Shown here one piece after another: positions 3,383-61,924 of a DNA stretch of 64,000 nucleotides (its first letter is position 1; each line of letters starts with the position of its first letter). Below the pieces are notes generated by a model. It was given only the letters and a program-made list of their open reading frames with translations, had not been told where the DNA came from and did no database searches. The translations under genes and the position numbers were made by a program. The DNA lies in the IMG/VR virus record IMGVR_UViG_2778260992_000001. The stretch is one strand, 5' to 3'. Source of the DNA: a virus (Duplodnaviria > Heunggongvirae > Uroviricota > Caudoviricetes).

Positions 3383-4483
3383 TCACACTGCGCGGAATGC
3401 GATTTCGCCAGGTATTACTTCACCTTGCCAATACATTTGGGCAGCAACGCGATCTGCGAGGTCACGATAAATAGCCGTAAATTCGCTATCTGGACGACTA
3501 ATAACGGTTGGTGTTCCGTTATCCAGATCTTCACGAAGAGAGATATGAAGTGGCATTTGGCCTAACAACTGCGTGTTGTATTTCTCGGCCAGTTTCTGTG
3601 CGCCACCGGTGCCAAAAATTGGCTCGTGATGACCGCAGTTACTGCAAATATGCACACTCATGTTTTCAACGATACCCAGTACCGGCACTTCGACTTTTTC
3701 GAACATCACAATGCCTTTCTTCGCATCGATCAGCGCGATGTCTTGCGGCGTAGTTACCACAACCGCACCAGTTACAGGAATGTTCTGCGCCAGCGTCAAC
3801 TGAATATCACCAGTGCCCGGCGGCATATCGAGAACGAGATAGTCCAGATCAGGCCACAGTGTTTCCTGCAACATCTGCATCAGCGCCTTGCTGGCCATCG
3901 GTCCACGCCACACCATTGCATTGTCGTCGGTGACCAGATAACCAATAGAGTTGGTTGCCAGGCCATGAGACATGATAGGTGCCATGTGAGTACCGTCAGG
4001 TGAGGTTGGACGTTGGTTTTCCGAGCCCAGCATGGTTGGAATTGATGGACCATAGATATCGGCATCCAAAATACCAACTTTCGCACCTTCAGCAGCCAAC
4101 GCCAGTGCCAGGTTTACCGCCGTGGAGGATTTACCCACGCCGCCCTTGCCTGAGCTGACGGCGATAATGTTCTTCACGCCATTAATGCCTGGTTGGTTTT
4201 TGACGCGCTTAAGCGTGGCAATGTTGTACGACAGCTTCCAGTCAATAGCCTTTGCGCCAGTGATACGGAGCAGATCACCACTACATTGCTCTTTCAGGTC
4301 TTCAAAAGGCTTATTCCACACGAAAGGCATGATTAGTTCGACATGCAGTGTGTCATCCATCAACGCAACATGGTGTAACGCTTTAAGCGTAGTCAGGTTG
4401 TGTTTCAGGGTTGGGTGCTGAAAATTAGCCAGCGTACCGGCTACCATTGCTCTCAGGGCATCCGGCGATTTGGACTCGCTCAT
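3383..4483 (-). CDS. apbC: iron-sulfur cluster carrier ATPase ApbC/Mrp
   Basis: Walker A GKGGVGKSS, C-terminal CSNCGHHEP motif; near-identical to E. coli Mrp as recalled; divergent from metG. Confidence 0.92.
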   Translation of the reverse strand: MSESKSPDALRAMVAGTLANFQHPTLKHNLTTLKALHHVALMDDTLHVELIMPFVWNKPFEDLKEQCSGDLLRITGAKAIDWKLSYNIATLKRVKNQPGINGVKNIIAVSSGKGGVGKSSTAVNLALALAAEGAKVGILDADIYGPSIPTMLGSENQRPTSPDGTHMAPIMSHGLATNSIGYLVTDDNAMVWRGPMASKALMQMLQETLWPDLDYLVLDMPPGTGDIQLTLAQNIPVTGAVVVTTPQDIALIDAKKGIVMFEKVEVPVLGIVENMSVHICSNCGHHEPIFGTGGAQKLAEKYNTQLLGQMPLHISLREDLDNGTPTVISRPDSEFTAIYRDLADRVAAQMYWQGEVIPGEIAFRAV

Positions 4484-4640
4484 CCCGTCTCCTTTATTTT
4501 AATTTGCGCAATTGTCGCCTTGTAGTGTACTCCAGCTACGACATTTAATCATTTATGAGAAATGCTGTTATCACATGGCAGACATAAGGCCATTTTGTTA
4601 CTATCAAGCCCCTTTTCACTACAAAGAAGTAATGCCTACT

Positions 4641-6674
4641 ATGACCCAAGTCGCGAAGAAAATTCTGGTGACGTGCGCGCTGCCGTACGCTAACGGCTCA
4701 ATCCACCTCGGCCATATGCTGGAGCACATCCAGGCTGATGTCTGGGTTCGTTACCAGCGAATGCGCGGCCACGAGGTTAATTTCATCTGTGCCGACGATG
4801 CCCACGGTACGCCGATCATGCTGAAAGCACAGCAGCTTGGTATCACACCGGAACAGATGATTGGCGAAATGAGTCAGGAACACCAGACTGATTTTGCAGG
4901 CTTTAACATCAGCTATGACAACTATCACTCGACGCACAGCGAAGAGAACCGTCAGTTGTCCGAGCTTATCTATACTCGCCTGAAAGAGAACGGTTTTATT
5001 AAAAACCGCACCATCTCTCAGCTGTACGATCCGGAAAAAGGCATGTTCCTGCCGGACCGTTTTGTGAAAGGCACCTGCCCGAAATGTAAAGCACCGGATC
5101 AATACGGCGATAACTGTGAAGTCTGCGGCGCTACTTACAGCCCGACTGAACTGATCGAGCCGAAATCGGTAGTTTCTGGTGCTACGCCGGTAATGCGTGA
5201 TTCCGAACACTTCTTCTTTGATCTGCCTTCTTTCAGCGAAATGTTGCAGGCATGGACCCGCAGCGGTGCGTTGCAGGAGCAGGTGGCAAACAAAATGCAG
5301 GAGTGGTTTGAATCTGGCCTGCAACAGTGGGATATCTCCCGCGATGCGCCGTACTTCGGTTTTGAAATTCCGAACGCACCGGGCAAATATTTCTACGTCT
5401 GGCTGGACGCGCCGATTGGCTACATGGGTTCCTTCAAGAATCTGTGCGACAAACGCGGCGACACTACCAGCTTCGACGAATACTGGAAGAAAGACTCCAC
5501 CGCCGAGCTGTACCACTTCATCGGTAAAGATATCGTTTACTTCCACAGCCTGTTCTGGCCTGCCATGCTGGAAGGCAGCAATTTCCGCAAGCCGACCAAC
5601 CTGTTTGTTCATGGCTATGTGACGGTGAACGGTGCGAAGATGTCCAAGTCTCGCGGCACCTTTATTAAAGCCAGCACCTGGCTGAATCATTTTGACGCTG
5701 ACAGCCTGCGTTACTACTACACTGCGAAACTCTCTTCGCGCATTGATGATATCGATCTCAACCTGGAGGATTTCGTTCAGCGCGTGAATGCCGATATCGT
5801 GAACAAAGTGGTTAACCTGGCCTCCCGTAATGCAGGCTTTATCAACAAGCGTTTTGACGGCGTGCTGGCAAGCGAACTGGCTGACCCGCAACTGTACAAA
5901 ACCTTTACTGATGCTGCTGAAGTGATTGGTGAAGCATGGGAAAGCCGCGAATTTGGTAAAGCGATTCGTGAAATCATGGCGCTGGCTGATCTGGCTAACC
6001 GCTATGTCGATGAACAGGCTCCGTGGGTGGTGGCGAAGCAGGAAGGGCGCGATGCCGATCTGCAGGCGATTTGCTCTATGGGCATTAACCTGTTCCGCGT
6101 GCTGATGACGTACCTGAAACCGGTACTGCCGAAACTGACTGAACGTGCAGAAGCATTCCTGAATACAGAACTGACCTGGGATGGTATCCAGCAACCGCTG
6201 CTGGGCCATAAAGTGAATCCGTTCAAGGCACTGTATAACCGCATCGACATGAAGCAGGTTGAAGCACTGGTGGAAGCATCCAAAGAGGAAGTAAAAGCCG
6301 CTGCCGCGCCAGTAACTGGCCCACTGGCAGATGATCCGATTCAGGAAACCATCACCTTTGACGACTTCGCCAAAGTTGACCTGCGCGTGGCTCTGATTGA
6401 AAACGCGGAGTTTGTCGAAGGTTCTGACAAACTGCTTCGCCTGACGCTGGATCTCGGTGGCGAAAAACGTAATGTCTTCTCCGGCATTCGTTCCGCTTAT
6501 CCAGATCCACAGGCACTGATTGGTCGTCACACCATTATGGTGGCCAACCTGGCTCCGCGTAAAATGCGCTTCGGTATCTCCGAAGGCATGGTGATGGCTG
6601 CTGGCCCCGGCGGGAAAGATATCTTCCTGTTAAGCCCGGATGCTGGTGCTAAACCAGGCCACCAGGTTAAGTAA
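4641..6674 (+). CDS. metG: methionine--tRNA ligase
   Basis: 677 aa from ATG at 4641 (track start 4512 is TTG); HIGH-like ANGSIHLGH and KMSKS motifs; matches E. coli MetG as recalled. Confidence 0.95.
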
Positions 6675-8225: not shown

Positions 8226-8945
8226 AATAACAGATCAACGAAACGTCAACGCTTTCACCCGATTTGGTCTAAAAAATTGACGTTTTCACACATCACTTCT
8301 TATACCCGTAACTCTACGCAGCAGACAGCGCCACAGCGTCCAATTTTCACCACAGACGACCCAACACACTACCAACAAAAACACACGCTCAAAATCGCTC
8401 CCGTTGCGTTACGCAACCATATAAACAACTTATTTTCAGGCATAACAAAACAACTAAATAACACACATGCCATTCCCAAAAACAACCAACCTCTTTATGG
8501 CAGGCTACCGAAAAGACCCACCTCTTCTCCCCAGGCTACCGGACAACCAACCTAACTTTCACAGGCAATCCGAAAACATTCATACGCGCGATACCCACGA
8601 CACGCCATTACCCAAACAGCGAAGAAATACCAGACTCACTGAAACCCCAACGAAGCCTGTTACCGCAAGGATTCTCTCAATCCCAAAAGACACGAAACAG
8701 AACAATCACGGGAAACGCCATTACCCAATACACGAATAACTACAAAAGCCTTTCAGGCACTCCAGACAAACAACTCAAACACAATAACGAAAGCAATCGC
8801 CCACCTGCCATTACTCCATACACGGAGAAGAACAATCACCAAAACGACGAGAACACCCCATAGAAGAACCACCGCAAAACGAACGAAACCACATACACCG
8901 ACAGAGAAAACAACACACCCAATTCACCAACAGAAATAGTCGCCG
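8226..8945. other. noncoding A+C-rich (G-poor) strand-skewed region
   Basis: About 0.7 kb without credible ORF; plus strand dominated by CAAC/ACAA/AAC runs. Confidence 0.55.
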
Positions 8946-9140
8946 TATAGGACATTCTGGAAGGAGTGAGCATTAACGCCTATAGAGAGGTTGAGACAGA
9001 TAAAACACAACATGTATAGCGAAGAAGCCAGGTATGTATAAGTGGGGATGGAAGGAGGGGTGTCGCCTCCTTTTTCGTATTTATTCAACTCCTGATTTTA
9101 TCCCCCGTAACACCCCTACGGTCAGCCTTCGGTCCATACA

Positions 9141-9271
9141 GGGGAAAGGCTGCATCCCGCTACAGAAACGGCTGGGTTGCCTTTGGGAACGGCTGGAGGT
9201 TTTCAGGGAAACGGTCGAGTTGCCTGTGTGGATTTCGGGAAAAGGCTCGATGCCGGTTCAGGAACGGTGGC
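9141..9271. repeat. iteron array 1: six GRAAACGGC-like repeats at about 21-bp spacing
   Basis: Copies starting near 9144, 9164, 9187, 9208, 9239, 9261 in a G-rich noncoding stretch. Confidence 0.6.
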
Positions 9272-9600
9272 GTACCGGTATAGCGAGAGGGAGAGTTGCG
9301 GCTACCCACCTGTAATGTGCGGGAAGAAGAGAGGCGCTCACGTAGGCGGACTTGCTTACCGCTGGATTCCCTCTGAATGCCCAGCTACAGCGTAATTGTG
9401 CCAGACAGCCAACGGGTCACAATCGATTTCAGTAGGTTTTTGGGGAGAGGATTACTCTGCCACCAGCCACTTTCGGCCACTAAATCAGAATAATGTAAAA
9501 AGTGTACTCGGTACTGAACCTGAAAACTCACTGCCAAAACCACATTCACCGGAACAAAATCCTTTTTCGCCTGTGCGTTATTGCGATAATAACACCATCA

Positions 9601-9617
9601 AGAAAACATGTTGTTTA
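9601..9617. promoter_or_regulatory. class-1 palindrome
   Basis: AGAAAACATGTTGTTTA; the track ATG at 9608 lies inside it. Confidence 0.55.
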
Positions 9618-9628
9618 AGGATTGCTTT

Positions 9629-9958
9629 ATGTTTACAAATATCGACATCAACCAAATCAAGAAATTAACTCAAAAAGAGTTTGATCAGTTTTATGAGTTA
9701 GAAGGTTGGTCTTCCACTCTGATCAATTCAAGATGGGTGCTGGAACTGATGACTCGTGATGACGCACCTGCTTTGATGATCAGCGACCTGGGTGAAGATG
9801 CTGACTTTATGGATATGAGCGAATTTTGTGTGGACACATACAACCGCAGCCAGAAGTACTACTTCACATGCGATAGCGAAAATGACGTGATTTCTAAGGT
9901 CTATCTTCACCTCGTCCAGCATTGGGACGTTCAGGAGTTTCTTGAAGTATTCGAGTAA
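9629..9958 (+). CDS. acidic small early protein (hypothetical)
   Basis: ATG at 9629 after AAGGA; product strongly acidic (about 22 D/E vs 8 K/R). Confidence 0.5.
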   Translation: MFTNIDINQIKKLTQKEFDQFYELEGWSSTLINSRWVLELMTRDDAPALMISDLGEDADFMDMSEFCVDTYNRSQKYYFTCDSENDVISKVYLHLVQHWDVQEFLEVFE

Positions 9959-9967
9959 CCCCAACCA

Positions 9968-9990
9968 AAGCCAGCATTGCTGGCTTAATT
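9968..9990 (+). terminator. hairpin AAGCCAGCATTGCTGGCTT
   Basis: Perfect stem immediately after stop. Confidence 0.5.
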
Positions 9991-10083
9991 TCTCTATAGC
10001 CGCAGGGAAGAACCTGCATATAGCTCATGCACCTGATCAATATGCTTTGTAGCCGTTTTCTTACTGGTATTATTTACGCCATT

Positions 10084-10101
10084 GAGAAAACAAGTTGTTT
10101 A
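10084..10101. promoter_or_regulatory. class-1 palindrome
   Basis: GAGAAAACAAGTTGTTTA; track TTG start 10082 overlaps it. Confidence 0.55.
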
Positions 10102-10111
10102 CGGAGTTGTG

Positions 10112-10423
10112 ATGAAAAAATCATTGGTTCTTGGTCTGGACAAAGACCAGAAGAGAAAAGAGAAGCCTGCGCTGGTTGCTCAATTAACTTTGCTGGACAT
10201 CGTTGCCAATGGAACCTCTATTCGTCTGTTCCGTGAAACAGCGGTGTCTTTCGATAAAAACACCTTTACTCGTTATGTAATGAATGTTCGTCGCCAGCGT
10301 GGAAAAGGCTGGGTGGCATTTCAAAGAATGTGGCCGGAACATCAGCTCGAACTGGCTTTGATGGAAGTTAACCGCGTGGCCCAGCAAGAGATTCAGAGAG
10401 CATCAGTGATGGCAATAGCCTGA
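10112..10423 (+). CDS. hypothetical basic small protein
   Basis: ATG at 10112 after ACGGAG; in frame with track ORF 10082. Confidence 0.5.
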   Translation: MKKSLVLGLDKDQKRKEKPALVAQLTLLDIVANGTSIRLFRETAVSFDKNTFTRYVMNVRRQRGKGWVAFQRMWPEHQLELALMEVNRVAQQEIQRASVMAIA

Positions 10424-10457
10424 TAATGTGCAAGTGGTAATTAGTCGACCGTACGAC

Positions 10458-10487
10458 AGCCCCGCCATCCTTACGGGGCTTTTTTGT
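10458..10487 (+). terminator. rho-independent terminator
   Basis: GCCCCG..CGGGGC stem plus TTTTTT. Confidence 0.65.
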
Positions 10488-10549
10488 ATTGTAAGTACAT
10501 ACTTACGATCATAGAATATAAAAATAACCAAAACACTACGGAGAGTGAA

Positions 10550-10945
10550 ATGACCGTTAAACGCGAAAAACTGACAGTTGATGTTTACTATGCCTCTGAA
10601 ACCGCCGAAGGTAAGAATGTGGCAAAAATCACCGTTGTTACGTACAACACCGAAACTGGTGCCGAAGTCCAGGCCAGTACGATCGTGCGTAAAGGTGATG
10701 CCTCCGGCGGCGAGTACGCGACTCAATACCAGTCCATTCTCGATGCAACTGACCCGCTGCTGCTGAAAATCGAGAACTACTTCCGCCAGGTTAATGAAGA
10801 GGTGTTTGAAACCATGATGAATATGGTTAACACCGTATTCGCCTCCAGCCTGAATACCAACACTACCTGGATTGGTCAGTACGGCCTGCGCATTACCTCT
10901 GGCATTCCTGCCGACACCTTAATCCCTGAAAGCGTATTCGCTTAA
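10550..10945 (+). CDS. hypothetical protein
   Basis: ATG at 10550 after GGAGAGTG; in frame with track ORF 10484. Confidence 0.5.
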   Translation: MTVKREKLTVDVYYASETAEGKNVAKITVVTYNTETGAEVQASTIVRKGDASGGEYATQYQSILDATDPLLLKIENYFRQVNEEVFETMMNMVNTVFASSLNTNTTWIGQYGLRITSGIPADTLIPESVFA

Positions 10946-10954
10946 TCCTCTTTA

Positions 10955-10982
10955 AATGGCGCGTAAACCGCGCCATTTTATT
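10955..10982 (+). terminator. rho-independent terminator
   Basis: ATGGCGCG-TAAAC-CGCGCCAT plus TTTTATT. Confidence 0.65.
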
Positions 10983-10989
10983 ATGCCCG

Positions 10990-11005
10990 ATAACAATTTG
11001 TTTTC
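10990..11005. promoter_or_regulatory. class-1 palindrome (variant)
   Basis: ATAACAATTTGTTTTC with the same CTGCCTT tail as the 6757 copy. Confidence 0.5.
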
Positions 11006-11062
11006 TGCCTTATCTGATTTGTGAAAATGATTTCACTGAAGCAACTTAATAAGGAAACCATC

Positions 11063-11437
11063 ATGGGACTTGATATCTATATCGAGACGCAGCCTAAAAA
11101 CGATCTGAATAACGAGGCATCCAGAAAGCAGGTTGCTTACTTCCGTAAGTTCAATGCGCTCGTTGGGTGGATGGAGCGCAACGTAGGTGAAGTCGAAAAT
11201 TGTGAGCTTTTAGAATTAACGATGAATGACATTTGTTTTCTGAAGGCTCATTTGATGCACATAAACGAAAGTAATTGCGAAGAGTACTTGCCTACCCGGG
11301 AAGGTTTTTTCTTCGGCAGTCAGGAGTACGATGAAGGTTACTGGCATGATGTGGGGCAGTTGAAAGAGCTTGTGGAAGATCTGATTAAGAACCACGACTT
11401 TCACAATAACAGACTGACCTTCTGCGCCTGGTGGTAA
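11063..11437 (+). CDS. acidic small early protein (hypothetical)
   Basis: ATG at 11063 after AAGGAAACC. Confidence 0.5.
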   Translation: MGLDIYIETQPKNDLNNEASRKQVAYFRKFNALVGWMERNVGEVENCELLELTMNDICFLKAHLMHINESNCEEYLPTREGFFFGSQEYDEGYWHDVGQLKELVEDLIKNHDFHNNRLTFCAWW

Positions 11438-11439
11438 AT

Positions 11440-11583
11440 ATGGGCGATTTCAAGAAACGCCTGAAGGAAAGAGCCGAGATGGTCAGAAAGCAAAACGCCT
11501 CTTCTGTCATCAGATACGCAAGGCAGTTTAGTCGCAACAACAAATCAGTTGAGGAAAAGATCCTTAGCGTAATCGGGCGATAA
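11440..11583 (+). CDS. hypothetical small basic protein (47 aa)
   Basis: Short ORF read manually between stop at 11437 and hairpin at 11590; not in track. Confidence 0.3.
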   Translation: MGDFKKRLKERAEMVRKQNASSVIRYARQFSRNNKSVEEKILSVIGR

Positions 11584-11589
11584 TTATTA

Positions 11590-11612
11590 AGGCCACCAGC
11601 ATTGGTGGTCTT
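11590..11612 (+). terminator. hairpin GGCCACCAGCATTGGTGGTC (copy 1)
   Basis: Near-identical copy at 12062; no strong U-tract. Confidence 0.45.
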
Positions 11613-11737
11613 AAATGACTTTTAATAACCGAAGGTTAGTTTGAAACCTGGCTATCAACTTCCATAACCTTTCTTGTGTATTCAGCCTGTATTAACTTCT
11701 TTTATGCCTTATCTACACTGCGATAATTACACCAACA

Positions 11738-11754
11738 AGAAAACAACATGTTTA
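11738..11754. promoter_or_regulatory. class-1 palindrome
   Basis: AGAAAACAACATGTTTA preceded by shared CGATAATTACACCAACA box. Confidence 0.55.
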
Positions 11755-11772
11755 CGCAGTTAGGATATGCTC

Positions 11773-12054
11773 ATGACTGATTTCACCATTACCCCTAAAG
11801 CACAAAATGTATTTCTTGAATCATGGCTGGACTTGCCGGAAACAGAACAGCAAGAAATGGATCATGTGGATTATGACGAGCAGGTAAGCACGCGATTCTT
11901 CCACTTTGAGGGATGCGTTTACGACATTGTCGACTTCATGCGAGATGACCGCTTCCCTGAATGGCACGCAAGCTATCCACTAAACGCCTTTGCCATGCTG
12001 ATGATCCGTGTGGATGATTCAGGGGATACCATCGACATCGGTCTGCTCCACTAA
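11773..12054 (+). CDS. acidic small early protein (hypothetical)
   Basis: ATG at 11773 after AGGA; about 19 D/E vs 4 K/R. Confidence 0.5.
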   Translation: MTDFTITPKAQNVFLESWLDLPETEQQEMDHVDYDEQVSTRFFHFEGCVYDIVDFMRDDRFPEWHASYPLNAFAMLMIRVDDSGDTIDIGLLH

Positions 12055-12061
12055 AGGCTAA

Positions 12062-12081
12062 GGCCACCAGCATTGGTGGCC
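12062..12081 (+). terminator. hairpin GGCCACCAGCATTGGTGGCC (copy 2)
   Basis: Perfect 8-bp stem, 4-nt loop; same flanks AAGG..TTAAATGAC as copy 1. Confidence 0.45.
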
Positions 12082-12222
12082 TTAAATGACTATCTTGTTT
12101 CCCGCAGGCTAAAAACACCAACCTCTTACCTCCAGGCAACCGACAAACCCACCTGTTCCCGTCCGGCTACCGTAACTTTCCACTTTGACGCCTTATTCGT
12201 ACAACGATAATTAACACCAACA

Positions 12223-12239
12223 AGAAAACAATTTGTTAT
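12223..12239. promoter_or_regulatory. class-1 palindrome
   Basis: AGAAAACAATTTGTTAT preceded by shared ACGATAATTAACACCAACA box. Confidence 0.55.
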
Positions 12240-12258
12240 TTACGATAAGGAATTAATC

Positions 12259-12741
12259 ATGAATTTTATCGCTACTGTAAACGCACCCGCACATGGCAAT
12301 ATCGCTGTAACGTTCTCTGACATTGAAAAACGAGTACTTGGTGCATGGCGCGACAATGAGACGGTAGAACTGTCAGCACAAGAAAAATGCATTATTGCAC
12401 GCGACATCATTGGCAATCGTCGTTACTCGCGGGTATTTGAAAAAGCGTATGTGGTAAATTCTGGATTCGGAACGTTCGTCTTTCCGGTGCGCTCCGGGCG
12501 ATTCTGCCAGTCCAAGCTGATTGAGTTCGCTACGCAGATTTCTGTCTGGATTAAAACTCAATCGTCGTTCAAATTTTCCGACGATGAAGCAGTATCGCAG
12601 GGGATGCGGATCGCCAACAATGCAATTAAATGCAAAAACATTACGTATACCGCTGGCGTTGATACATGGAAACTGTTTTGCGCTAACTTTATGCTGAATG
12701 TATACGCAAGCAACCGCATCCACATCCTTGATGGCGTGTAA
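12259..12741 (+). CDS. hypothetical protein
   Basis: ATG after TAAGGAATT; last rightward early gene. Confidence 0.5.
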   Translation: MNFIATVNAPAHGNIAVTFSDIEKRVLGAWRDNETVELSAQEKCIIARDIIGNRRYSRVFEKAYVVNSGFGTFVFPVRSGRFCQSKLIEFATQISVWIKTQSSFKFSDDEAVSQGMRIANNAIKCKNITYTAGVDTWKLFCANFMLNVYASNRIHILDGV

Positions 12742-12748
12742 CTGAGAA

Positions 12749-12772
12749 GAGGGCCAGAAACGGCCCTTTCTC
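12749..12772 (+). terminator. rho-independent terminator
   Basis: GGGCC-AGAAAC-GGCCC plus TTTCTCT. Confidence 0.6.
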
Positions 12773-12790
12773 TATAGCCACCAGCTGCCG

Positions 12791-12909
12791 CAGGGAAATT
12801 TTCAGAAACGGCGAGGAACGTATTCATGAGCCGACGGGAAACGGCCAGGATTTTTTCGGGAAACGGCTGCATTCGCCTTTATGTAGAAAAAACATCGGGA
12901 AGCTGGTGG
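12791..12909. repeat. iteron array 2: GGAAACGGC-like repeats
   Basis: Strong copies near 12805, 12839, 12861 plus degenerate ones; convergent intergenic region. Confidence 0.55.
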
Positions 12910-13287
12910 AATCCAACCAGCGGTTGTCGGACAGGTGAGCGGGGAAAATTATGATGACTTTCGTCACCTGAGACATCCAGATTTCTTTCGTAGCATAATC
13001 ACATACGTGATTAAGTGGTGTGATTATGTGAAAAATCACGCGCACATAATACGCGAGCGGATACAGAACAAAACAAAATGCCGATCCGCACCGACAAATA
13101 AACGCGGATCACATAGCAAGACTAAAAGCCAATGATTAACCATACTCTATAGCGCAATATAACGCGTTTTAAGCGCGTTAATGTGTTAAGTAATGGGTAT
13201 GTACTGGCAAGGATATAAAAGCGCGTCTATGGCGTTATTTTGGTGCTTATTTTTATGTTGTTGGAGTGAGTTAAAGACAATAAAAAA

Positions 13288-13310
13288 CGCGCCATTGATG
13301 GCGCGTTATT
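13288..13310 (-). terminator. rho-independent terminator (minus strand)
   Basis: GCGCCATTGATGGCGC hairpin with T6 on minus strand. Confidence 0.6.
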
Positions 13311-13330
13311 GTGGAAGTATTGGAAACGAA

Positions 13331-13350
13331 AAAAGCGCCCATAGTGGGCG
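13331..13350 (-). terminator. rho-independent terminator (minus strand), GCGCCCATAGTGGGCGC
   Basis: Hairpin plus T-run on minus strand, just past stop of ORF 13358..13588; identical hairpin at 13831. Confidence 0.65.
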
Positions 13351-13357
13351 CTCGATT

Positions 13358-13588
13358 TTATTTATGTAAACTGATTTCAAATCCCATTTCTACAAACGCT
13401 TTCAGCATTAAAAATATATCAGCGTCGTTCACGTCTGCTTTTTTTCGCTCCTGGTCGCTCAATAAGTCAATTTTGCGCGTCGTTTCATCTATAAGCTCGA
13501 CTGCGCGCCCAGCGTAACCAGCGATCCCAGCGATGCGATTAACATAATATTCGTTATGGACGTTAACGCCAGCGATAAGAACAAACAT
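13358..13588 (-). CDS. hypothetical protein (AT-rich accessory gene)
   Basis: ORF track; AT-rich codon usage; own terminator. Confidence 0.45.
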   Translation of the reverse strand: MFVLIAGVNVHNEYYVNRIAGIAGYAGRAVELIDETTRKIDLLSDQERKKADVNDADIFLMLKAFVEMGFEISLHK

Positions 13589-13608
13589 GATTAAGCTCCT
13601 TAAAAAAA

Positions 13609-13812
13609 TTAAATAGAATTTTGAAGTTTTCCAATTAATGCGCTTAAACGTAAGTATTCACGTTTGCGCTTGCAATCTCGCTTGCTGTTAAGCAAATCAG
13701 AAAACGTAAAATTTAATTGGTCGCGTTGCGCGATTAAATCATCGATTAATTCTAGTTTATAAGCGCGATACTTTGCGCGATATTCCGCGCGGATCTTGTC
13801 ATAGCTGACCAT
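13609..13812 (-). CDS. hypothetical basic protein
   Basis: Track ORF 13609..13857 trimmed to internal Met so the start is not inside the 13831 hairpin. Confidence 0.4.
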   Translation of the reverse strand: MVSYDKIRAEYRAKYRAYKLELIDDLIAQRDQLNFTFSDLLNSKRDCKRKREYLRLSALIGKLQNSI

Positions 13813-13830
13813 TTTCAAAGCTCCTTTAAA

Positions 13831-13850
13831 GCGCCCATAGTGGGCGCTTG
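13831..13850 (-). terminator. hairpin GCGCCCATAGTGGGCGC (second copy)
   Basis: Identical to 13331 hairpin; directly past stop of ORF 13861..14511. Confidence 0.5.
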
Positions 13851-13860
13851 ATTCCATTAA

Positions 13861-14511
13861 TTACGCTTTGAAAGCATCAGCTAAATAATTGTAGAAATCA
13901 TTTTTAATGAAGCGATATTGCTGAGTACCAGCTTTCGCGCTCCCAGCTCCTTTGACTTTTTCAACAAGTCCAAGACGTTCGCAAAGATTGATCAACTGGT
14001 TGGCTTGAGTATAACCAGCGTCCAATTTAATTTCACACGCTTTTTTAGCTTCATTCATTAAATCGAAAACAGCGCCATTAGTGAACGTGTCGATCTCGTC
14101 GTTAATCATATCGATTAAAGCGAATACACGAGATCCAGACATATCAGCGATGGAATAAACGCATTTACCAGATTTAATTGATTTAACCAGATAAACCAGT
14201 TTTTCCAGAGAATAACTATTAGTCATTGCATCACGGAAAAATACTTCTGGCGCTTGTTTGCTTGCTTTAATCGCATAGTAGAAAACAGAGCATAATTTTT
14301 CGTCTTCTACTGCGTTTACGACGTTGTTGATGAAGTAAGCAAGTTTAGTGGTCGCAGCTTGCATATTTGCTTTGTCTGCTTTAGTGTGCGTACCATTTTT
14401 ATAATGTTCGTTATATGTTTGAGTTGCCAGATCTGCTTTTTCGCGCAGTTCATCGGATACAATGGAAGCAGCTTCAATGATGGATTTTTTAGAAATGATA
14501 ATGTTAGCCAT
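13861..14511 (-). CDS. hypothetical protein, possible winged-helix C-terminus
   Basis: 216 aa; C-terminal LINLCERLGLVEK..QQYRF resembles a winged-helix DNA-binding segment (weak); monocistronic, AT-rich. Confidence 0.45.
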   Translation of the reverse strand: MANIIISKKSIIEAASIVSDELREKADLATQTYNEHYKNGTHTKADKANMQAATTKLAYFINNVVNAVEDEKLCSVFYYAIKASKQAPEVFFRDAMTNSYSLEKLVYLVKSIKSGKCVYSIADMSGSRVFALIDMINDEIDTFTNGAVFDLMNEAKKACEIKLDAGYTQANQLINLCERLGLVEKVKGAGSAKAGTQQYRFIKNDFYNYLADAFKA

Positions 14512-15106: not shown

Positions 15107-15631
15107 TCAAAAAGGCAAAATTCGTTCAACCCAATCGAACAAAACAACTATTTTTCTACCGTTCTCGACACGTAGTGTAACCTGACAAGCATCTGCGCCT
15201 GCTGACACCCCCTCAATTTCACGGCCATCCGCCATGTACACCCTTATAGATTTGTTTGCTTTGTAGGCTTGGTTGCAAATTGCAAAAAAATCGCGGCGTG
15301 ATGGCCGATTATCGACATAATCAGGGTGAACTGTTAGTCGACCTTTGAAATCGTGAGCGATACTGTCAACCACACCTGATTCAATTGTACTAATGCGTTC
15401 AAGTGGGAGCCTTATACGATTTTCTTTGTCAAAAGGGGCTGGGCAAAGGTCAACTTTGTTACGAGATGGCATGAGGCCATAAACGTACATGCAAAACGCC
15501 TGGCCATCTTCGAGAGTGACCCTTACAGGAATTTGTTCTCTGCGCCAGAACATCAGTAGTTTTTCAACGTTAGTGTAATCTCGCGGCCAGAGTTCAGCTT
15601 GGATACCGTAGGTAATATCTTTGGTTGTCAT
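15107..15631 (-). CDS. hypothetical protein
   Basis: Track ORF 15107..15709 trimmed to internal Met (MTTKDITYG) to avoid overlap with the lipoprotein gene. Confidence 0.45.
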   Translation of the reverse strand: MTTKDITYGIQAELWPRDYTNVEKLLMFWRREQIPVRVTLEDGQAFCMYVYGLMPSRNKVDLCPAPFDKENRIRLPLERISTIESGVVDSIAHDFKGRLTVHPDYVDNRPSRRDFFAICNQAYKANKSIRVYMADGREIEGVSAGADACQVTLRVENGRKIVVLFDWVERILPF

Positions 15632-18010: not shown

Positions 18011-18032
18011 TAATAAGTAAGTGATTACTTAG
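18011..18032. promoter_or_regulatory. class-2 element TAAGTAAGT..TTACTTA
   Basis: TAATAAGTAAGTGATTACTTAG in divergent region between helicase and ParB-like genes. Confidence 0.5.
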
Positions 18033-18049
18033 TGGATTGTAGCAATAAA

Positions 18050-18730
18050 ATGGATGTAAAAATCACGATTTTGCAGGTTGATGTTGCCAACCTTCGCCCG
18101 AATACCTGGAACACCAATTCGGTTGGTGCGCAGAATTTTGAAAAACTGAAAGGTTCTATCGAAAAATTGGGCTTTTTTAAGCCAATTTTGGCTCGTGAAC
18201 TTGAAGATGGATTTTTTGAAATCCTCGGCGGTGAACATCGCTGGCGTGCTGCTATTGAGCAAGGAATTTCAACGGTTCCGGTGCTTTCTGTGGGCAAAAT
18301 TAGCGATGTCGTAGCTAAACAGATGTCACTGGTGGACAACGAGCGATACGGTGAAGACGACCAAATCGCATTGCAACGCTTCATTGAAGAAATTCAGTCA
18401 GAACTTGACTATCAACTGTTTGAAATCGCTCCGTATGACGACGAAATCTCGATGGTTTTAGCAAAAGAGGCGGCAATCGACCTTGAAGCACTGGAGGCGT
18501 TGTCTCGTGGTAGTGATGAGCCTGTCGATACCGACAAACGAGAGAAAACCGAACGTGTGGGTGCGGAACATCAGACCATGCGCTTCAAAGTAACTTTCGA
18601 TGCGTCAGATCGTGTTGCAGAAACCATAAAAAACATCATCAAAGAGCAGGCTATTAACACCGGTAATGAAATGGAGAACGCTGGTGAGGCTCTGGTGTGG
18701 CTGGTCGACTACTACAAGGAGCGTATGTAA
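18050..18730 (+). CDS. ParB/Srx-fold N-terminal domain protein 1
   Basis: GGEHRWRAA arginine-rich motif resembling ParB GERRxRAA box; start moved to ATG 18050. Confidence 0.6.
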   Translation: MDVKITILQVDVANLRPNTWNTNSVGAQNFEKLKGSIEKLGFFKPILARELEDGFFEILGGEHRWRAAIEQGISTVPVLSVGKISDVVAKQMSLVDNERYGEDDQIALQRFIEEIQSELDYQLFEIAPYDDEISMVLAKEAAIDLEALEALSRGSDEPVDTDKREKTERVGAEHQTMRFKVTFDASDRVAETIKNIIKEQAINTGNEMENAGEALVWLVDYYKERM

Positions 18731-19398
18731 TGACCAAAAAGTTTGAAATCGTATATCGCGACCCGGCAGATCTTATTCCCTATGAGATGAATGCCAAAAA
18801 GCATGATGAACAGCAGATCAGAGATCTGGCCGCAGCCATTAAAAAGCGCGGATTTGACCAGCCAATTACGGTCGATAAGAACGACGTAATTATTACTGGC
18901 CACGGCCGCCGTGAGGCTGCAATTTTTGCTGGACTTGAGCGCGTACCGGTTATTGTTCGCGATGATCTCAGTGATGACGAGGTTCGTGCGAAGCGCCTTG
19001 AAGATAACCGACTTGCCAGCATTGATTACGATGCAATTAAGCTACAGAAAGAGCTTGAGTCGCTTGTTCTGGACGATATCGAGGTTTTCGGCTTTGAAGA
19101 GCGTGAGTTGAATGTTCTCGTTGGCAGTATGACAGAAGAAATGGACACCGACTCGCTAGTTATCGATCTTGGCGAAGAAACTAAACGACAGAAGGATGAA
19201 CACACCGAGATCAGTCGTGAAGTTGCAGCGGAAGAAGTACGTGTTGTCGACGTATTGGGCTTTAAAACGCTCCCTGCTGGCTCTGCCATTGTTGTTGGTG
19301 ATTTGCTTGCCCATATGGAAGAAATGACGGGAGAAAGCGGGGTAGACGCATTTGTGGCATATGCGGAGAAGATCTCTTCCGGGGAGATGGCTGCATGA
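18730..19398 (+). CDS. ParB/Srx-fold N-terminal domain protein 2
   Basis: TGHGRREAA motif; start ATG overlaps previous stop (TAATG). Confidence 0.55.
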   Translation: MTKKFEIVYRDPADLIPYEMNAKKHDEQQIRDLAAAIKKRGFDQPITVDKNDVIITGHGRREAAIFAGLERVPVIVRDDLSDDEVRAKRLEDNRLASIDYDAIKLQKELESLVLDDIEVFGFEERELNVLVGSMTEEMDTDSLVIDLGEETKRQKDEHTEISREVAAEEVRVVDVLGFKTLPAGSAIVVGDLLAHMEEMTGESGVDAFVAYAEKISSGEMAA

Positions 19399-20060
19399 GC
19401 AAATACATCATCAACGTATCGTTTCAGACACGCGTAAATAAAACCACGCGCACGTTGGAAATCGCTGAGTCGTTCGGGCTTGGCCTGGACGAAAAAGAGT
19501 GGACGCTTTACGACAATCTGGAGCTGGAAGTGAAGCAGGGCGATGTGGTGTACATCACCGGCCAATCCGGTTCCGGCAAATCCGTTGTGCTGCGCGAGTT
19601 GCAACGACAGATGAAGGATGAAGGGCTGTCTGTAGCCTCCATCGATGATTTTACCTTCGATAATGAGGTTAACGTCATCGATCAGTTGGGCAAAACGACC
19701 AGTGATGCGCTTGGGTTGTTATCTATGGCTGGTCTGAACGATGCATATCTGTTTGTTCGCAAGCCTTCTGAAATGTCAGACGGCCAGAAATATCGTCTCA
19801 AGATTGCCAAACTGATTGAGTCAGGCGCTAAAGTATGGGCTGCTGACGAGTTCGGCGCTGTTCTCGACCGTGTAACCGCTCAGGTTGTGGCGTCTAACCT
19901 CCAGCGTGCCGCTCGAAAGGTTGGTGCGACGGTAATGGTGGCGACGACTCACGAAGACCTGAAGAACGCGCTGCGCCCTGATATGCAGATCACCAAGCAC
20001 TACAAAGAACGCGTGAAGGTGGAATATCACAATGGTAGTCATGATGAGGTCCATTCATGA
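19395..20060 (+). CDS. ABC-type ATPase (soluble, 221 aa)
   Basis: Walker A GQSGSGKS, signature-like SDGQKYR, Walker B VWAADEFG, H-loop ATTHED. Confidence 0.65.
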   Translation: MSKYIINVSFQTRVNKTTRTLEIAESFGLGLDEKEWTLYDNLELEVKQGDVVYITGQSGSGKSVVLRELQRQMKDEGLSVASIDDFTFDNEVNVIDQLGKTTSDALGLLSMAGLNDAYLFVRKPSEMSDGQKYRLKIAKLIESGAKVWAADEFGAVLDRVTAQVVASNLQRAARKVGATVMVATTHEDLKNALRPDMQITKHYKERVKVEYHNGSHDEVHS

Positions 20061-20947
20061 CGGACATCATCATTAAACGCTACCGCCCTGAAGAGTTTCC
20101 GCGTCATCTGGACTTTCTGGAGCGAATGACTGTTACAAAGGGAACTGTAGAGGACTGGCACGCTCTTAAGTCGCTTCACTACAAAACAGACGGCAAACCT
20201 TTCGCGCCAACTTACTATCGCTGCGAACTTGATGACCGTCTGGTGGGCGTCGTGGTTATGGCTTACCCGAAACTACTGTTGGCACCTCGCCACCGCATGT
20301 TTCCTAAGTTGAAACCAACCACTAATACCACCGTGGCTAACCAGTACTGGGGTCGGTACGTGAATAACAACTTTGCGGTGATCAGTCGCTCAGTTGTGGA
20401 TACTCAGTATCGTGGCGTAGGCGTCTCTTATAGAATGATTAACCTGGTTAGCAGGATGCATGACCGGCCAATCATTGAGATCCAGTCCTCGATGAGCAAA
20501 TACAATCCCTTCGCCATGAAAGCAGGGTTTAAGTTCATCCGCCCTGAGCGACCGAAGAGCTATGAAAGTGCACTGCGTGTGTTCCAGCGCCATTTCCGCT
20601 CCGACCCGGGTGATAACGAGGCGATCGTCAAAGAGTTGTTCGCTATGAGCGAGTCTCGTCGTCGCCGTGCGCTGCGCGATTTGGTGGCGGACTACCATAA
20701 GAACAGTTCCCTGGCAAAAGCTGGGCGGAATCGTGGCACGACGATTCAGGACATTGCCGACAGTCTGGTGGACGAGGCCAGCATTGTGAAGCTGCTCAAG
20801 GACATTCACAACCTGAGCTTTACGTCTCCGTTGTATGGTGTGTACCGAAACCCTGACTTTGGCCGTCGACTGCCTGACACGCTGCCACTGCTGGCATTCG
20901 ACAAACAACCTTTGGATAAACCGTTAGAAATTGCTTTACCGGCATAA
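20057..20947 (+). CDS. hypothetical protein, weak acyltransferase-like motif
   Basis: YRGVGVS segment reminiscent of GNAT motif A; weak. Confidence 0.4.
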   Translation: MTDIIIKRYRPEEFPRHLDFLERMTVTKGTVEDWHALKSLHYKTDGKPFAPTYYRCELDDRLVGVVVMAYPKLLLAPRHRMFPKLKPTTNTTVANQYWGRYVNNNFAVISRSVVDTQYRGVGVSYRMINLVSRMHDRPIIEIQSSMSKYNPFAMKAGFKFIRPERPKSYESALRVFQRHFRSDPGDNEAIVKELFAMSESRRRRALRDLVADYHKNSSLAKAGRNRGTTIQDIADSLVDEASIVKLLKDIHNLSFTSPLYGVYRNPDFGRRLPDTLPLLAFDKQPLDKPLEIALPA

Positions 20948-60541: not shown

Positions 60542-60690
60542 TTCCATACATCTCATTGGCTTTTATGGCTGGCTTCCTTATCGGCTTCGGCATCTGTCGT
60601 GATTTGATTAAGCAGGAACTTAAAACCAAAACACTGTGCATCGGGAAGCGTGTGTATCGGGTAGTTCATGAAACAAAGGTGAGAACATGA
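60538..60690 (+). CDS. hypothetical small membrane protein (50 aa)
   Basis: Manually read ORF with hydrophobic N-terminus ISLAFMAGFLIGFGI; coupled to neighbours. Confidence 0.3.
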   Translation: MIPYISLAFMAGFLIGFGICRDLIKQELKTKTLCIGKRVYRVVHETKVRT

Positions 60691-60977
60691 GCAATTTAAC
60701 TTCTTGGGACTGGTGGTTGGTACACTATTTCTTAGCGGCCGGAGTCGCATTCGCCTTTTACGTAGGTCAGTTAGTCGTAAAACTGTTGCTGATTAAATTT
60801 GCTAGTCATAAACGTATCGATGATGGTCTGTGGCGTCTTGGCACCCTGGTGGAAACTCGCTACGGGCAACTTAAGGAGAACGAAACCATTACTATCCAAG
60901 CGAAACGATTCACTGCCACCATCACAAGAACACCTAGTCGTAGAGTGGCCTTGATCAAAAAAGTCACAACCGAATAA
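60687..60977 (+). CDS. hypothetical membrane protein
   Basis: N-terminal TM WWLVHYFLAAGVAFAFYVG. Confidence 0.45.
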   Translation: MSNLTSWDWWLVHYFLAAGVAFAFYVGQLVVKLLLIKFASHKRIDDGLWRLGTLVETRYGQLKENETITIQAKRFTATITRTPSRRVALIKKVTTE

Positions 60978-60986
60978 AAACATATC

Positions 60987-61008
60987 GATAAGTATTTACT
61001 TACTTATC
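60987..61008. promoter_or_regulatory. class-2 palindrome
   Basis: GATAAGTATTTACTTACTTATC (8-bp arms). Confidence 0.5.
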
Positions 61009-61152
61009 TTTTGTGTATAAGATGACTTTGTTTTCGTTGAGACGCGACTGTTTGAACTTAAATACAAGTGCAAACGAAGAAGTCTATCTGGCAGTAGCCT
61101 AATAAGCCAAACACCAGCGAGGTCAGTTTCCAGCCTCGTTACCGAAATGGGA

Positions 61153-61500
61153 CACACTGAGCGAGTGTGATTGCAGAACGCAGGAGGGAACATGAGTGTT
61201 CCCTCCGATGAAGTAACAGAATGGGCGGTCGGTATATTTTCAACTCCATATGACTCCCGGATTCTTAGCCACTGACCGCCCATCCTGTTACGTCATTTTG
61301 TTCAATTATGTCGTTTATACTGGGTTAAAAAGCGGCGACGTAGCCCGGCTGGTATGGTTAGCCAGCACACAACGTTGAGGCCATTACATTTTTATCAATT
61401 CTAAGGTTCTATTCACAGAGATACCGGCGAGCGTTGATATGTAACATGTTGGGCAAACATTCAATCGGAGTAGTGGCCTCAACGTTGTGAAGACAGGATT
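61153..61500 (+). ncRNA. candidate structured RNA region (strand and function unknown)
   Basis: Nested perfect stems at 61183-61206, 61215-61230/61274-61289 and 61368-61382/61475-61489 in an ORF-free stretch. Confidence 0.35.
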
Positions 61501-61753
61501 GTTGTGTAGGTTTAACCACTGTTGCCATTGGTGCCTGTTTTCACAACAAATGATTCCATACATCACATTATATAAATTACAAAGTAGGTGCTGTCCTCAG
61601 AAACATCATCTACTTAAAGATTTAGCCTTCTATTGAGCGAAGTCGAAAGCGTCTGGCACTAACGAAAAGTGCAAGTAGCGGTGCGTTTCCTGGCAGAAAC
61701 TAACACCGCCGCGATTGGCACTGTTGAGTAATAAATACTGTCAGTGCTGAATT

Positions 61754-61828
61754 GATGGTGTAGCTCAGCGGTAGAGCAGTTGGCTGTTAACCAACTGGTC
61801 GGTGGTTCGAATCCACCCACCATCGCCA
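61754..61828 (+). tRNA. tRNA-Asn (GUU)
   Basis: Manual cloverleaf: 7-bp acceptor GATGGTG/CACCATC, anticodon loop CTGTTAA, T-loop GGTTCGAATCC, 3' CCA; differs from E. coli tRNA-Asn. Confidence 0.8.
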
Positions 61829-61833
61829 ATTTA

Positions 61834-61920
61834 GGGGAGTTAGTCCGTAGAGGTAGCGGTGTAGACTGTAAATCTACTGTCATGGCGACTCGGGTGGTTC
61901 GACTCCATCACTCCCCACCA
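61834..61920 (+). tRNA. tRNA-Tyr (GUA), class II
   Basis: Acceptor GGGGAGT/ACTCCCC, anticodon stem-loop GTAGA-CTGTAAA-TCTAC, long variable arm, 3' CCA. Confidence 0.75.
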
Positions 61921-61924
61921 AATT

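What the first reader, a model, noticed from the sequence alone, without database searches (positions are those of the whole stretch)
12791..13060. Iteron array 2 and GTGA/TCAC half-site cluster in the convergent intergenic region
A second set of GGAAACGGC-like repeats (12805, 12839, 12861) is followed by a cluster of TCAC-N4-GTGA-type inverted half-sites (12995-13050), between the end of the rightward early array and the tandem terminators of the leftward block. Two iteron arrays 3.5 kb apart may mark origin and handcuffing sites, or binding sites for two regulators.
Basis: seen in the sequence. Interest (0 to 1): 0.5.

Follow-up and report, generated by a model that had tools for sequence, protein, structure and literature searches.

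The report
Conserved docking-repeat array in phage-plasmid gap
A 616-base gene-free gap of an SSU5/pHCM2/pMT1-type phage-plasmid carries a short repeated motif (GGGAAACGG) that stays almost unchanged across the whole plasmid family and probably docks an unidentified protein, but it is not the plasmid's own replication repeat.

Summary
The window is an E. coli SSU5/pHCM2/pMT1-like phage-plasmid. The finding lies in a 616-bp non-coding gap (12742-13357) between convergent genes. GGGAAACGGC occurs at 12836 and 12858, and CAGAAACGGC at 12803, all on the + strand. In 80 related loci this motif clusters only here and in "array 1" (9142-9266). It is near-invariant even where the flanking protein is only 51% identical.

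No ORF in the gap is conserved, no Rfam family matches, and RNA covariation is weak.

The plasmid-replicon reading fails. RepA iterons are a different sequence (CTCTCTAyAGTGGATA), lie about 38 kb away, and the motif does not vary with replicon type.

The TCAC/GTGA cluster is statistically real but specific to one clade. It is not CRP-like and overlaps hairpins.

Array 2 sits in a shielded island. A + strand terminator lies on its left, at least four minus-strand terminators on its right, and inward-facing Chi sites bracket it in 55 of 70 distinct relatives.

My best reading (about 0.45) is a duplex-DNA docking array for an unidentified element-encoded protein, paired with array 1, possibly a phage-mode origin/enhancer like P4 ori/crr. 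The main rival is an RNA-level array bound by the neighbouring FljA-like protein, which I found to be a tandem Hfq/Sm fold.

The parts
12748..12775 (+). Intrinsic-terminator-like hairpin of the 160-aa gene (AGAGGGCC-AGAAAC-GGCCCTTT, then TCTCTAT). Its loop holds the 12757 GAAACGGC copy, which reads GGAAACGCC in most relatives, so it is probably not part of the array.
12778..12785 (-). Chi site (CCACCAGC on the + strand, i.e. GCTGGTGG on the minus strand), left guard of the array
   Evidence: present left of the array in 56 of 70 distinct related gaps
12803..12812 (+). Repeat A, CAGAAACGGC, 33-34 bp before repeat B
12836..12845 (+). Repeat B, GGGAAACGGC, nearly invariant in the family
12858..12867 (+). 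Repeat C, GGGAAACGGC preceded by TTTTC, 22 bp after B, nearly invariant
12878..12892 (+). Conserved TTTATGTAGAAAA block just after the last repeat. A related GGTATAG block follows array 1. Role unknown.
12902..12909 (+). Chi site GCTGGTGG, right guard of the array. Relatives carry it at other offsets.
   Evidence: 63 of 70
12994..13039 (.). Clade-specific nested inverted repeats: CATAATCACA / TGTGATTATG, TCAC-N4-GTGA at 12999-13010, GTGA-N4-TCAC at 13028-13039
13039..13055 (-). Terminator-like hairpin CGCGTATTATGTGCGCG followed by TGATTTTT
13082..13111 (-). Terminator-like hairpin (GATCCGC/GCGGATC) followed by GCATTTTGTTTTG
13286..13307 (-). Second tandem terminator of the leftward block, invariant stem
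13333..13353 (-). First terminator of the leftward block (bidirectional shape), invariant
9142..9266 (+). Array 1: six GGGAAAmGG-type repeats at 21/22/31-bp spacing, preceded by a conserved hairpin at 9051-9076. Partner of array 2.

Best explanation
Array 2 (12803-12867) and array 1 (9142-9266) are two copies of one family-specific cis element. Each is a set of same-strand direct repeats with a 9-10-nt asymmetric core, gGGAAAcGGc.

I think the repeats act on duplex DNA as multi-copy docking sites. The binder would be an element-encoded, sequence-specific protein other than the plasmid initiator RepA, binding head-to-tail.

The two arrays bracket the variable block of early one-gene cassettes (2.9-4.1 kb apart in relatives) and could be bridged by that protein. 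The complex appears deliberately shielded. A + strand terminator hairpin precedes each array. At least four minus-strand terminators stop leftward transcription before array 2. Inward-facing Chi sites would stop RecBCD coming from either side.

The role I favour is a phage-mode (non-RepA) replication origin plus enhancer pair, as in satellite phage P4 (ori and crr).

Shown: the arrays, their conservation, their non-coding nature, their distinctness from the RepA iterons, and the shielding features. Inferred: protein binding, action at DNA level, bridging between arrays, and the replication role.
For: Motif statistics and family-wide clustering on one strand at exactly two places.

The repeats are near-invariant while the spacers and the rest of the gap diverge. 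They persist in the most divergent relative, L109, whose flanking protein is 51% identical.

Spacing is iteron-like: 22 bp 197 times, 21 bp 24 times and 31 bp 41 times in array 1 over 70 loci, and 33/34 + 22 bp in array 2. These are close to whole helical turns.

No conserved ORF. No Rfam family. Consensus RNA structure is weak, -12.9 kcal/mol with a covariation term of -0.48.

The paired motif at 22-bp spacing is essentially confined to this family among 2.9 million viral contigs.

Shielding: a + strand hairpin/terminator lies before both arrays, minus-strand terminators lie at 13353, 13307, 13111 and 13055, and the minus-Chi/array/plus-Chi order is found in 55 of 70 distinct gaps, with the right-hand Chi at three different offsets in three clades.

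The element encodes its own helicase, primase, ligase and Pol III alpha, yet the only annotated origin-type repeats belong to the plasmid RepA.

Against: The conserved core is only 9-10 nt, shorter than classical 17-22-bp iterons.

In L109 the spacings are 24, 28, 34 and 35 bp, so helical phasing is not obligatory. The 22-bp period elsewhere may simply record tandem duplication.

There is no AT-rich unwinding block next to the array. The array itself is 55-57% GC, and the lowest values, 32-37% GC, lie 130-400 bp to the right.

The site lies at a convergence of transcription, about 40 kb from the helicase/primase genes. GC skew there reflects gene orientation only.

All copies lie on the transcribed strand, which fits an RNA-level role equally well.
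Confidence: 0.45

Rival explanations
1. RNA-level array. The repeats are read in transcripts: array 1 in a long non-coding RNA starting near 8305, and array 2 in read-through or a long 3' UTR of the 160-aa gene. There they dock the neighbouring FljA-like protein, either as a decoy (sponge) or as a control region for the early cassettes.
For: All copies in 80 loci are on the strand transcribed rightward.

Spacing is flexible in L109, and the core is short.

The FljA-like gene (15107..15631, minus strand) keeps its position in every relative examined, including L109 and L110.

From my own knowledge, Salmonella FljA acts on fliC mRNA (Yamamoto and Kutsukake 2006; Aldridge et al. 2006).
Against: Each array lies just downstream of a terminator-like hairpin.

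No promoter was predicted for array 2.

The motif is not presented in conserved hairpin loops, and covariation is weak.

The resemblance of 12825-12843 to the E. coli fliC leader (a 12-mer plus GGAAAC) is not above the window's background: score 12 against a maximum of 18 elsewhere.

The strict 21/22/31-bp spacing in most of the family is not needed for RNA binding.
Confidence: 0.25
2. Transcription-factor sites. The repeats are operator or activator sites for a regulator. The regulator would either control an unannotated promoter just right of each array (the conserved TTTATGTAG / GGTATAG blocks) or silence or insulate the cassette block by looping between the two arrays, as lambda CI does between OL and OR.
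For: Short direct repeats on one helical face. Conserved blocks lie 10-20 bp after the last repeat of both arrays. The arrays flank the cassette block.
Against: No gene starts near array 2. The TATGTA/TATAGC blocks lack the T at the last position of a sigma-70 -10 element, and the scan found nothing there. The arrays do not overlap the recognisable cassette promoters at 9561, 10045, 11698 and 12183.
Confidence: 0.15
3. The arrays are extra iterons of the plasmid replicon, used by RepA for handcuffing or copy-number control.
For: Direct repeats at about 22-bp spacing in two clusters, as in P1 oriR/incA.
Against: The RepA iterons of Cyrano are CTCTCTAyAGTGGATA, on both sides of repA, about 38 kb away. 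There is no sequence relation to the array motif. The motif is unchanged in plasmids with three different replicon types. No further GAAACGGC cluster occurs near repA.
Confidence: 0.03
4. For the TCAC/GTGA part only: it is an operator for a second, palindrome-binding regulator.
For: Four GTGATT/AATCAC hexamers lie within 43 bp, and the arms are perfect: 6 bp at 12997-13012 and 10 bp for CATAATCACA/TGTGATTATG.
Against: The cluster is present only in the window/Cyrano/PhiR41_1 clade. There is no CRP-type TGTGA-N6-TCACA even allowing 2 mismatches. It overlaps a minus-strand terminator-like hairpin with its T-run, and it folds as one long imperfect hairpin (z = -2.3). Only the 14-mer TGTGATTATGTGAA is shared with other clades.
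Confidence: 0.15

Closest known systems
Satellite phage P4 ori and crr (alpha-protein binding octamers in two clusters 4.5 kb apart). From my own knowledge.
   Same: A short asymmetric motif repeated directly. Two clusters a few kb apart on one replicon. Independent of any plasmid-type Rep.
   Different: The motif sequence is unrelated (P4 uses TGTTCACC). No alpha-like primase-helicase with a DNA-binding domain was identified here. Replication from the arrays is untested. No AT-rich segment lies next to the array.
P1/F/RepFIB-type plasmid iterons (oriR plus incA, handcuffing). Present in this very family around repA.
   Same: Direct repeats at 21-22-bp spacing, several per cluster, in two clusters.
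   Different: Different sequence and location, and no link to replicon type. The conserved core is 9-10 nt, not 17-19.
CsrB/RsmZ-type protein-sponge RNAs. From my own knowledge.
   Same: Many copies of a short motif on one strand in non-coding sequence. A single-strand-binding (Sm-fold) protein is encoded nearby.
   Different: The motif is not displayed in hairpin loops. The arrays sit behind terminator-like hairpins. Transcription and binding are untested.
Chi (GCTGGTGG) polarity around chromosomal origins. From my own knowledge.
   Same: Chi on the bottom strand to the left and on the top strand to the right of array 2, the arrangement that stops RecBCD moving towards the site.
   Different: Only one pair is tightly linked to the array. 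Genome-wide polarity in Cyrano is 12 plus and 12 minus, with only coarse zoning. The two 8-mers are also complementary to each other, although the right one persists where the left is lost.

Membership tests
Iterons of the resident RepA (RepFIB/P1-type) replicon | Same repeat sequence as the iterons that flank repA | tested here: not met
   The Cyrano repA flanks carry CTCTCTAyAGTGGATA at 21-bp spacing. The arrays carry GGGAAACGG.
Iterons of the resident RepA (RepFIB/P1-type) replicon | Located at or next to the rep gene, and co-varying with replicon type | tested here: not met
   repA is at 60.6-61.7 kb and array 2 at 99.0 kb of Cyrano. The motif is identical in IncFIB, rep_cluster_488 and rep_cluster_763 plasmids.
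Iteron-type origin in general (lambda ori, P4 ori/crr, R6K) | Several same-sense direct repeats phased by whole helical turns | tested here: met
   Spacings of 21/22/31/33-34 bp in nearly all of 70-80 loci. The exception is L109, with 24/28/34/35 bp.
Iteron-type origin in general (lambda ori, P4 ori/crr, R6K) | Adjacent AT-rich unwinding element and/or DnaA boxes | tested here: not met
   The array is 55-57% GC. The nearest low-GC stretches (32-37%) lie 130-400 bp away. No DnaA-box search was run.
Iteron-type origin in general (lambda ori, P4 ori/crr, R6K) | Bound by an initiator, and replication starts there | not testable with these tools
   Needs binding assays and marker-frequency or 2D-gel mapping.
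Protein-coding gene (ORF 12935..13135 and others) | ORF kept open and conserved as protein, with third-position bias | tested here: not met
   The 66-aa ORF is found only in the E. coli clade. Length differences are not multiples of three. Substitutions by codon position are 274/321/368. The 58-aa frame is cut to 4-7 aa in most relatives.
Known RNA families (Rfam 15) | Match at or near a family's gathering score | tested here: not met
   Only tRNAs pass in the window. Sub-threshold hits in the gap all fall on the two terminator hairpins.
Structured RNA element | Conserved helices with compensatory changes | tested here: inconclusive
   22 predicted pairs, -12.9 kcal/mol, and one pair with a double change (window 12787 with 12812) in one clade only.
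CRP-type operator | TGTGA-N6-TCACA palindrome | tested here: not met
   No match in the gap with up to 2 mismatches. The observed spacings are N4.
Protein-sponge RNA (CsrB-like) | Own promoter and terminator, motif in hairpin loops, cognate RNA-binding protein | tested here: inconclusive
   Hairpin-loop display is not seen. Transcription could not be tested. A tandem Hfq-like protein is encoded 2.3 kb away.
Chi sites | Exact GCTGGTGG, over-represented and oriented | tested here: met
   16 sites in the window against 1.56 expected. The inward-facing pair around array 2 occurs in 55 of 70 distinct gaps. RecBCD response was not testable.

The most novel reading that the evidence does not exclude
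The two arrays mark the so far unknown phage-mode replication origin of the SSU5/pHCM2/pMT1 phage-plasmids. On this reading the origin is an iteron island shielded from transcription and, by inward-facing Chi sites, from RecBCD. Array 1 would be fed by a conserved upstream unit: a promoter-like site at 8277-8305, a roughly 700-nt A+C-rich tract, then a G-rich block and hairpin. That unit could prime replication through an R-loop, in an element that carries its own RNase H and a UvsW-type R-loop helicase. A second, equally novel option is that the arrays are RNA decoys for a tandem-Hfq FljA-like protein.
Probability: 0.2. Interest if true: 0.75.

Novelty: new variant of a known kind. Interest (0 to 1): 0.5.

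Why it matters
This plasmid family includes pMT1 of Yersinia pestis, pHCM2 of Salmonella Typhi, and common resistance-carrying phage-plasmids of Klebsiella and E. coli. The gap matched 779 PLSDB records.

How these elements switch from plasmid to phage replication is not known. I found no description of these arrays in the papers I could search.

The arrays are a near-invariant pair of cis elements, distinct from the RepA iterons and visibly shielded from transcription and exonuclease. That makes them a concrete, testable handle on the switch: delete them, pull down what binds them, and map replication after induction. If the arrays instead work as RNA with the tandem-Sm FljA-like protein, this would extend Hfq-like regulation to a phage-encoded paralogue.

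Tried and rejected
1. RepA iterons or handcuffing. Rejected on sequence, distance and replicon-type grounds.

2. Coding potential. I tested four ORFs in the gap by tblastn against 15 diverse relatives, by codon-position counts and by frame survival. All were rejected.

3. Rfam, at gathering thresholds and at permissive E-values. Nothing but terminator look-alikes.

4. RNAalifold on array 2. Weak.

5. Mimicry of the fliC leader. I recalled, then confirmed, that E. coli K-12 fliC has TGAGCCGACGGG..GGAAAC in its leader. A scan of the whole window shows stronger chance matches elsewhere, and the 12-mer is confined to the E. coli clade. Rejected.

7. CRP site. None.

8. Published small RNAs on pMT1 (sR082, sR083). 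They map elsewhere.

9. The same array in other viruses. Hits outside the family are coding repeats or microsatellites.

10. GC skew as an origin marker. It follows gene orientation only.

11. A long-range stem between the two Chi 8-mers. The right-hand copy is kept where the left is mutated, so pairing is not what is conserved.

12. The afdb50 fold library was not available. Two FljA papers and one 2026 preprint were not held.

Full report
WHAT THE WINDOW IS. The region 11500-14500 is 96-97% identical to Escherichia phages Cyrano, CMS-2020a and PhiR41_1. It is more distantly related to Klebsiella phage-plasmids and to Salmonella phage SSU5. The 616-bp stretch 12742-13357 matches 779 PLSDB plasmids. 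These include pHCM2 of S. Typhi, pMT1 of Y. pestis, and Klebsiella, Enterobacter, Citrobacter and Cronobacter plasmids. Almost all of these records show no annotated gene there. The window is therefore an SSU5/pHCM2/pMT1-type phage-plasmid of E. coli.

The finding lies in the gap between two convergent genes. One is a 160-aa gene (12259..12741, + strand, phrog_1641), the last of a row of small rightward genes that each have their own promoter/leader repeat and hairpin terminator. The other is a 76-aa gene (13358..13588, minus strand), the last gene of a leftward block that includes an FljA-like protein and a UvsW-type helicase. The gap keeps its place and its length (575-654 bp) in every relative examined.

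CHECK OF THE OBSERVATION. GAAACGGC starts at 12757, 12805, 12838 and 12860, all on the + strand. The whole window has seven copies, against 2.3 expected. The exact 10-mer GGGAAACGGC occurs only at 12836 and 12858. The TCAC-N4-GTGA (12999-13010) and GTGA-N4-TCAC (13028-13039) pairs are there. Four GTGATT/AATCAC hexamers lie within 43 bp, against 41 in the window. Both halves of the observation are real and non-random.

CONSERVATION. I aligned the gap from 15 annotated relatives. I then aligned it from 80 loci recovered through the 160-aa protein in GTDB genomes and IMG/VR. Among 14 representatives with gaps less than 95% identical, identity to the window is:
- 0.9-0.94 over 12832-12861 and 12802-12811;
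- 0.84-0.86 over 12872-12891;
- 0.93-0.99 over the two terminators at 13282-13351;
- only 0.37-0.6 over 12900-13050, which holds the TCAC/GTGA cluster.

The block GGGAAACGGyCAGGnnnTTTTCGGGAAACGGC is almost invariant from Escherichia to Yersinia, while the spacer between repeats A and B is rewritten in each clade. A census of the motif class over 80 loci finds it at 0-200 nt after the gene stop (3.3 per locus, none on the minus strand) and in one upstream zone, array 1. It appears practically nowhere else within 4.5 kb on either side.

The copy at 12757 is the loop of the terminator hairpin and reads GGAAACGCC in most relatives. I do not count it as part of the array.

The most divergent relative found (L109, flanking protein 51% identical) still has GGGAAACGGCT twice after the gene and five times in its array 1.

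ARRAY 1. It is equally conserved, with 4-7 copies. It lies in a 1.4-1.9-kb gene-free region in pHCM2, Klebsiella, Cronobacter and E. coli plasmids.

Spacings in array 1 over 70 loci are 22 bp (197 times), 21 (24), 31 (41) and 44 (6). Array 2 has 33/34 and 22 bp. The information-rich core is only gGGAAAcGGc. In L109 the spacings are 35, 28, 24 and 34 bp, so the 22-bp lattice is usual but not obligatory.

IS IT CODING OR A KNOWN RNA? No.
- Relatives differ in length there by 8, 19, 23, 31 or 43 nt.
- Substitutions show little codon-position bias.
- The 58-aa ORF is truncated to 4-7 codons in most relatives.
- The apparent tblastn hits of the other ORFs cover exactly the repeats and occur on both strands.
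- Rfam gives nothing apart from sub-threshold look-alikes on the terminators.
- RNAalifold on 16 diverse array-2 sequences gives -12.9 kcal/mol, with a covariation term of -0.48 and a single compensated pair in one clade.

IS IT THE PLASMID REPLICON'S ITERON? No. In Cyrano, repA (60633-61688) is flanked on both sides by its own arrays of CTCTCTAyAGTGGATA at 21-bp spacing, the classical P1/RepFIB layout. That is about 38 kb from array 2, and the 45 kb around it holds a single stray GAAACGGC. The GGGAAACGG motif is identical in plasmids typed IncFIB, rep_cluster_488 and rep_cluster_763. RepA handcuffing is therefore rejected.

WHAT SURROUNDS ARRAY 2. On the left is the terminator hairpin of the 160-aa gene (12748-12775). 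On the right the scan finds minus-strand terminator-like hairpins at 13353-13333 and 13307-13286 (both invariant in the family), and at 13111-13082 and 13055-13039. Transcription from both sides should therefore stop before the array.

Array 1 is likewise preceded by a + strand hairpin with a T-run (9051-9076). Its stem changes in a compensating way between clades and folds significantly in five of six clades.

The window is also rich in Chi: 16 GCTGGTGG against 1.56 expected. Array 2 is bracketed by a minus-strand Chi at 12778-12785 and a plus-strand Chi at 12902-12909. This is the orientation in which RecBCD approaching from either side would be stopped before the array (established Chi polarity, from my own knowledge).

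The same order is found in 55 of 70 distinct related gaps. The right-hand Chi sits at +160, +180 or +204 from the gene stop in different clades. It is kept where the left one is lost, and a plus-Chi never lies left of the array. This points to selection on the Chi sequences themselves rather than on pairing between them. Genome-wide Chi polarity in Cyrano is only coarsely zoned, with 12 plus and 12 minus. I therefore do not use it as origin evidence.

THE TCAC/GTGA CLUSTER. It consists of nested inverted repeats: AATCAC-ATAC-GTGATT, GTGATT-N8-AATCAC, and 10-bp arms CATAATCACA/TGTGATTATG. They overlap the 13055-13039 hairpin and its T-run, and they fold as one long imperfect hairpin on the minus strand (z = -2.3). 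The cluster is absent from all clades but the window's own. Only TGTGATTATGTGAA is shared. No CRP-type site exists. I regard it as clade-specific hairpin or terminator sequence, with an operator role possible but unsupported.

CANDIDATE BINDERS. The 160-aa protein next to array 2 is restricted to this family. It gives a fair model (pLDDT 79) with no significant structural neighbour.

INTERPRETATION. Several things are shown:
- two arrays of one short asymmetric motif, on one strand;
- strong purifying selection on them across a plasmid family spanning several genera;
- they are non-coding and unrelated to the RepA iterons;
- each lies behind a terminator hairpin;
- array 2 lies in a pocket closed by terminators and Chi sites on both sides.

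Three features are what one expects of a nucleoprotein complex assembled on duplex DNA that must not be disturbed: the usual whole-turn spacing, the shielding from transcription on both sides, and the shielding from exonuclease. This is why I rank the DNA-docking model first (about 0.45). Within it I favour a phage-mode origin/enhancer pair of the P4 ori/crr kind (about 0.2-0.25 on its own).

Against it stand the short core, the missing AT-rich block, the flexible spacing in L109 and the lack of a binder. The RNA-level model with the tandem-Sm protein is the main rival (about 0.25). A transcription-factor or looping role follows (about 0.15).

NOVELTY. I found no description of these arrays in the papers available to me. 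As a kind of element (phased direct-repeat binding array) it is familiar. As a specific, family-wide element distinct from RepA, with its shielding by terminators and Chi, it appears to be undescribed.

Noticed in passing
window 9460-12909 and the whole window; Cyrano (L196+L018+L195+L001): Host-like density of Chi: 16 GCTGGTGG in 64 kb against 1.56 expected. Five lie in non-coding DNA of the early region (minus strand at 9460, 11593, 12064 and 12778; plus strand at 12902), two of them inside cassette terminator hairpins. An inward-facing pair brackets array 2 in 55 of 70 distinct relatives.
   Followed up: partly
window 8277-9078: A conserved promoter-like site (TTGACG-N17-TTATAC, also in L109) is followed by a roughly 700-nt tract that is 70-77% A+C on the + strand (poor in G and T). 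Next come a G-rich, C-poor block and a hairpin with a T-run (9051-9076), directly upstream of array 1. The same layout is found in pHCM2, Klebsiella, Cronobacter and L109. It could be a Rho-loading tract or a priming transcript.
   Followed up: partly
[not shown]
   Followed up: partly
window 9561-12775: A row of one-gene cassettes. Each small + strand gene has its own copy of a roughly 55-nt promoter/leader repeat (9561, 10045, 11698, 12183) with an A-rich AACAAGAAAACA stretch before the start codon, and its own hairpin terminator (11588, 12059). The number of cassettes differs between relatives.
   Followed up: no
window 13146-13180; L109 6735-6805: Three units of about 11 bp (TATAGCGCAA / TATAACGCGTT / TTAAGCGCGTT) in the AT-richer right half of the gap. 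At the same place the divergent relative L109 has about nine tandem 8-mers, CTAAAyKG.
   Followed up: no
L018 30145-30633 and 31690-32432 (Cyrano 60.1-62.4 kb): Classical iteron arrays CTCTCTAyAGTGGATA at 21-bp spacing on both sides of repA, with DnaA-box-like TGTGGATAA nearby. This is the true plasmid origin region.
   Followed up: partly
window 12825-12843; L107 (E. coli K-12 fliC leader): The fliC 5' leader shares TGAGCCGACGGG and GGAAAC with the spacer and repeat B of array 2, in the E. coli clade only. This is not above the background of the window.
   Followed up: yes
window 18032-20947: Two consecutive ParB_N-only proteins, an ABC-type ATPase and a 296-aa protein of unknown function stand at the head of the late operon, upstream of the terminase genes. 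This order is conserved in L109 and L110.
   Followed up: no
window 3383-6674 and 61754-62311: Host-like genes (apbC/mrp-like, and methionyl-tRNA synthetase according to the annotation of relatives) and a cluster of four tRNA genes (Asn, Tyr, Thr, Ser).
   Followed up: no
window 12785-12790 with 12808-12814: A possible stem CTGCCG/CGGCnAG would sequester repeat A. It shows one double compensatory change (G-C to C-G) in the Klebsiella clade but is broken in the Cronobacter clade.
   Followed up: partly
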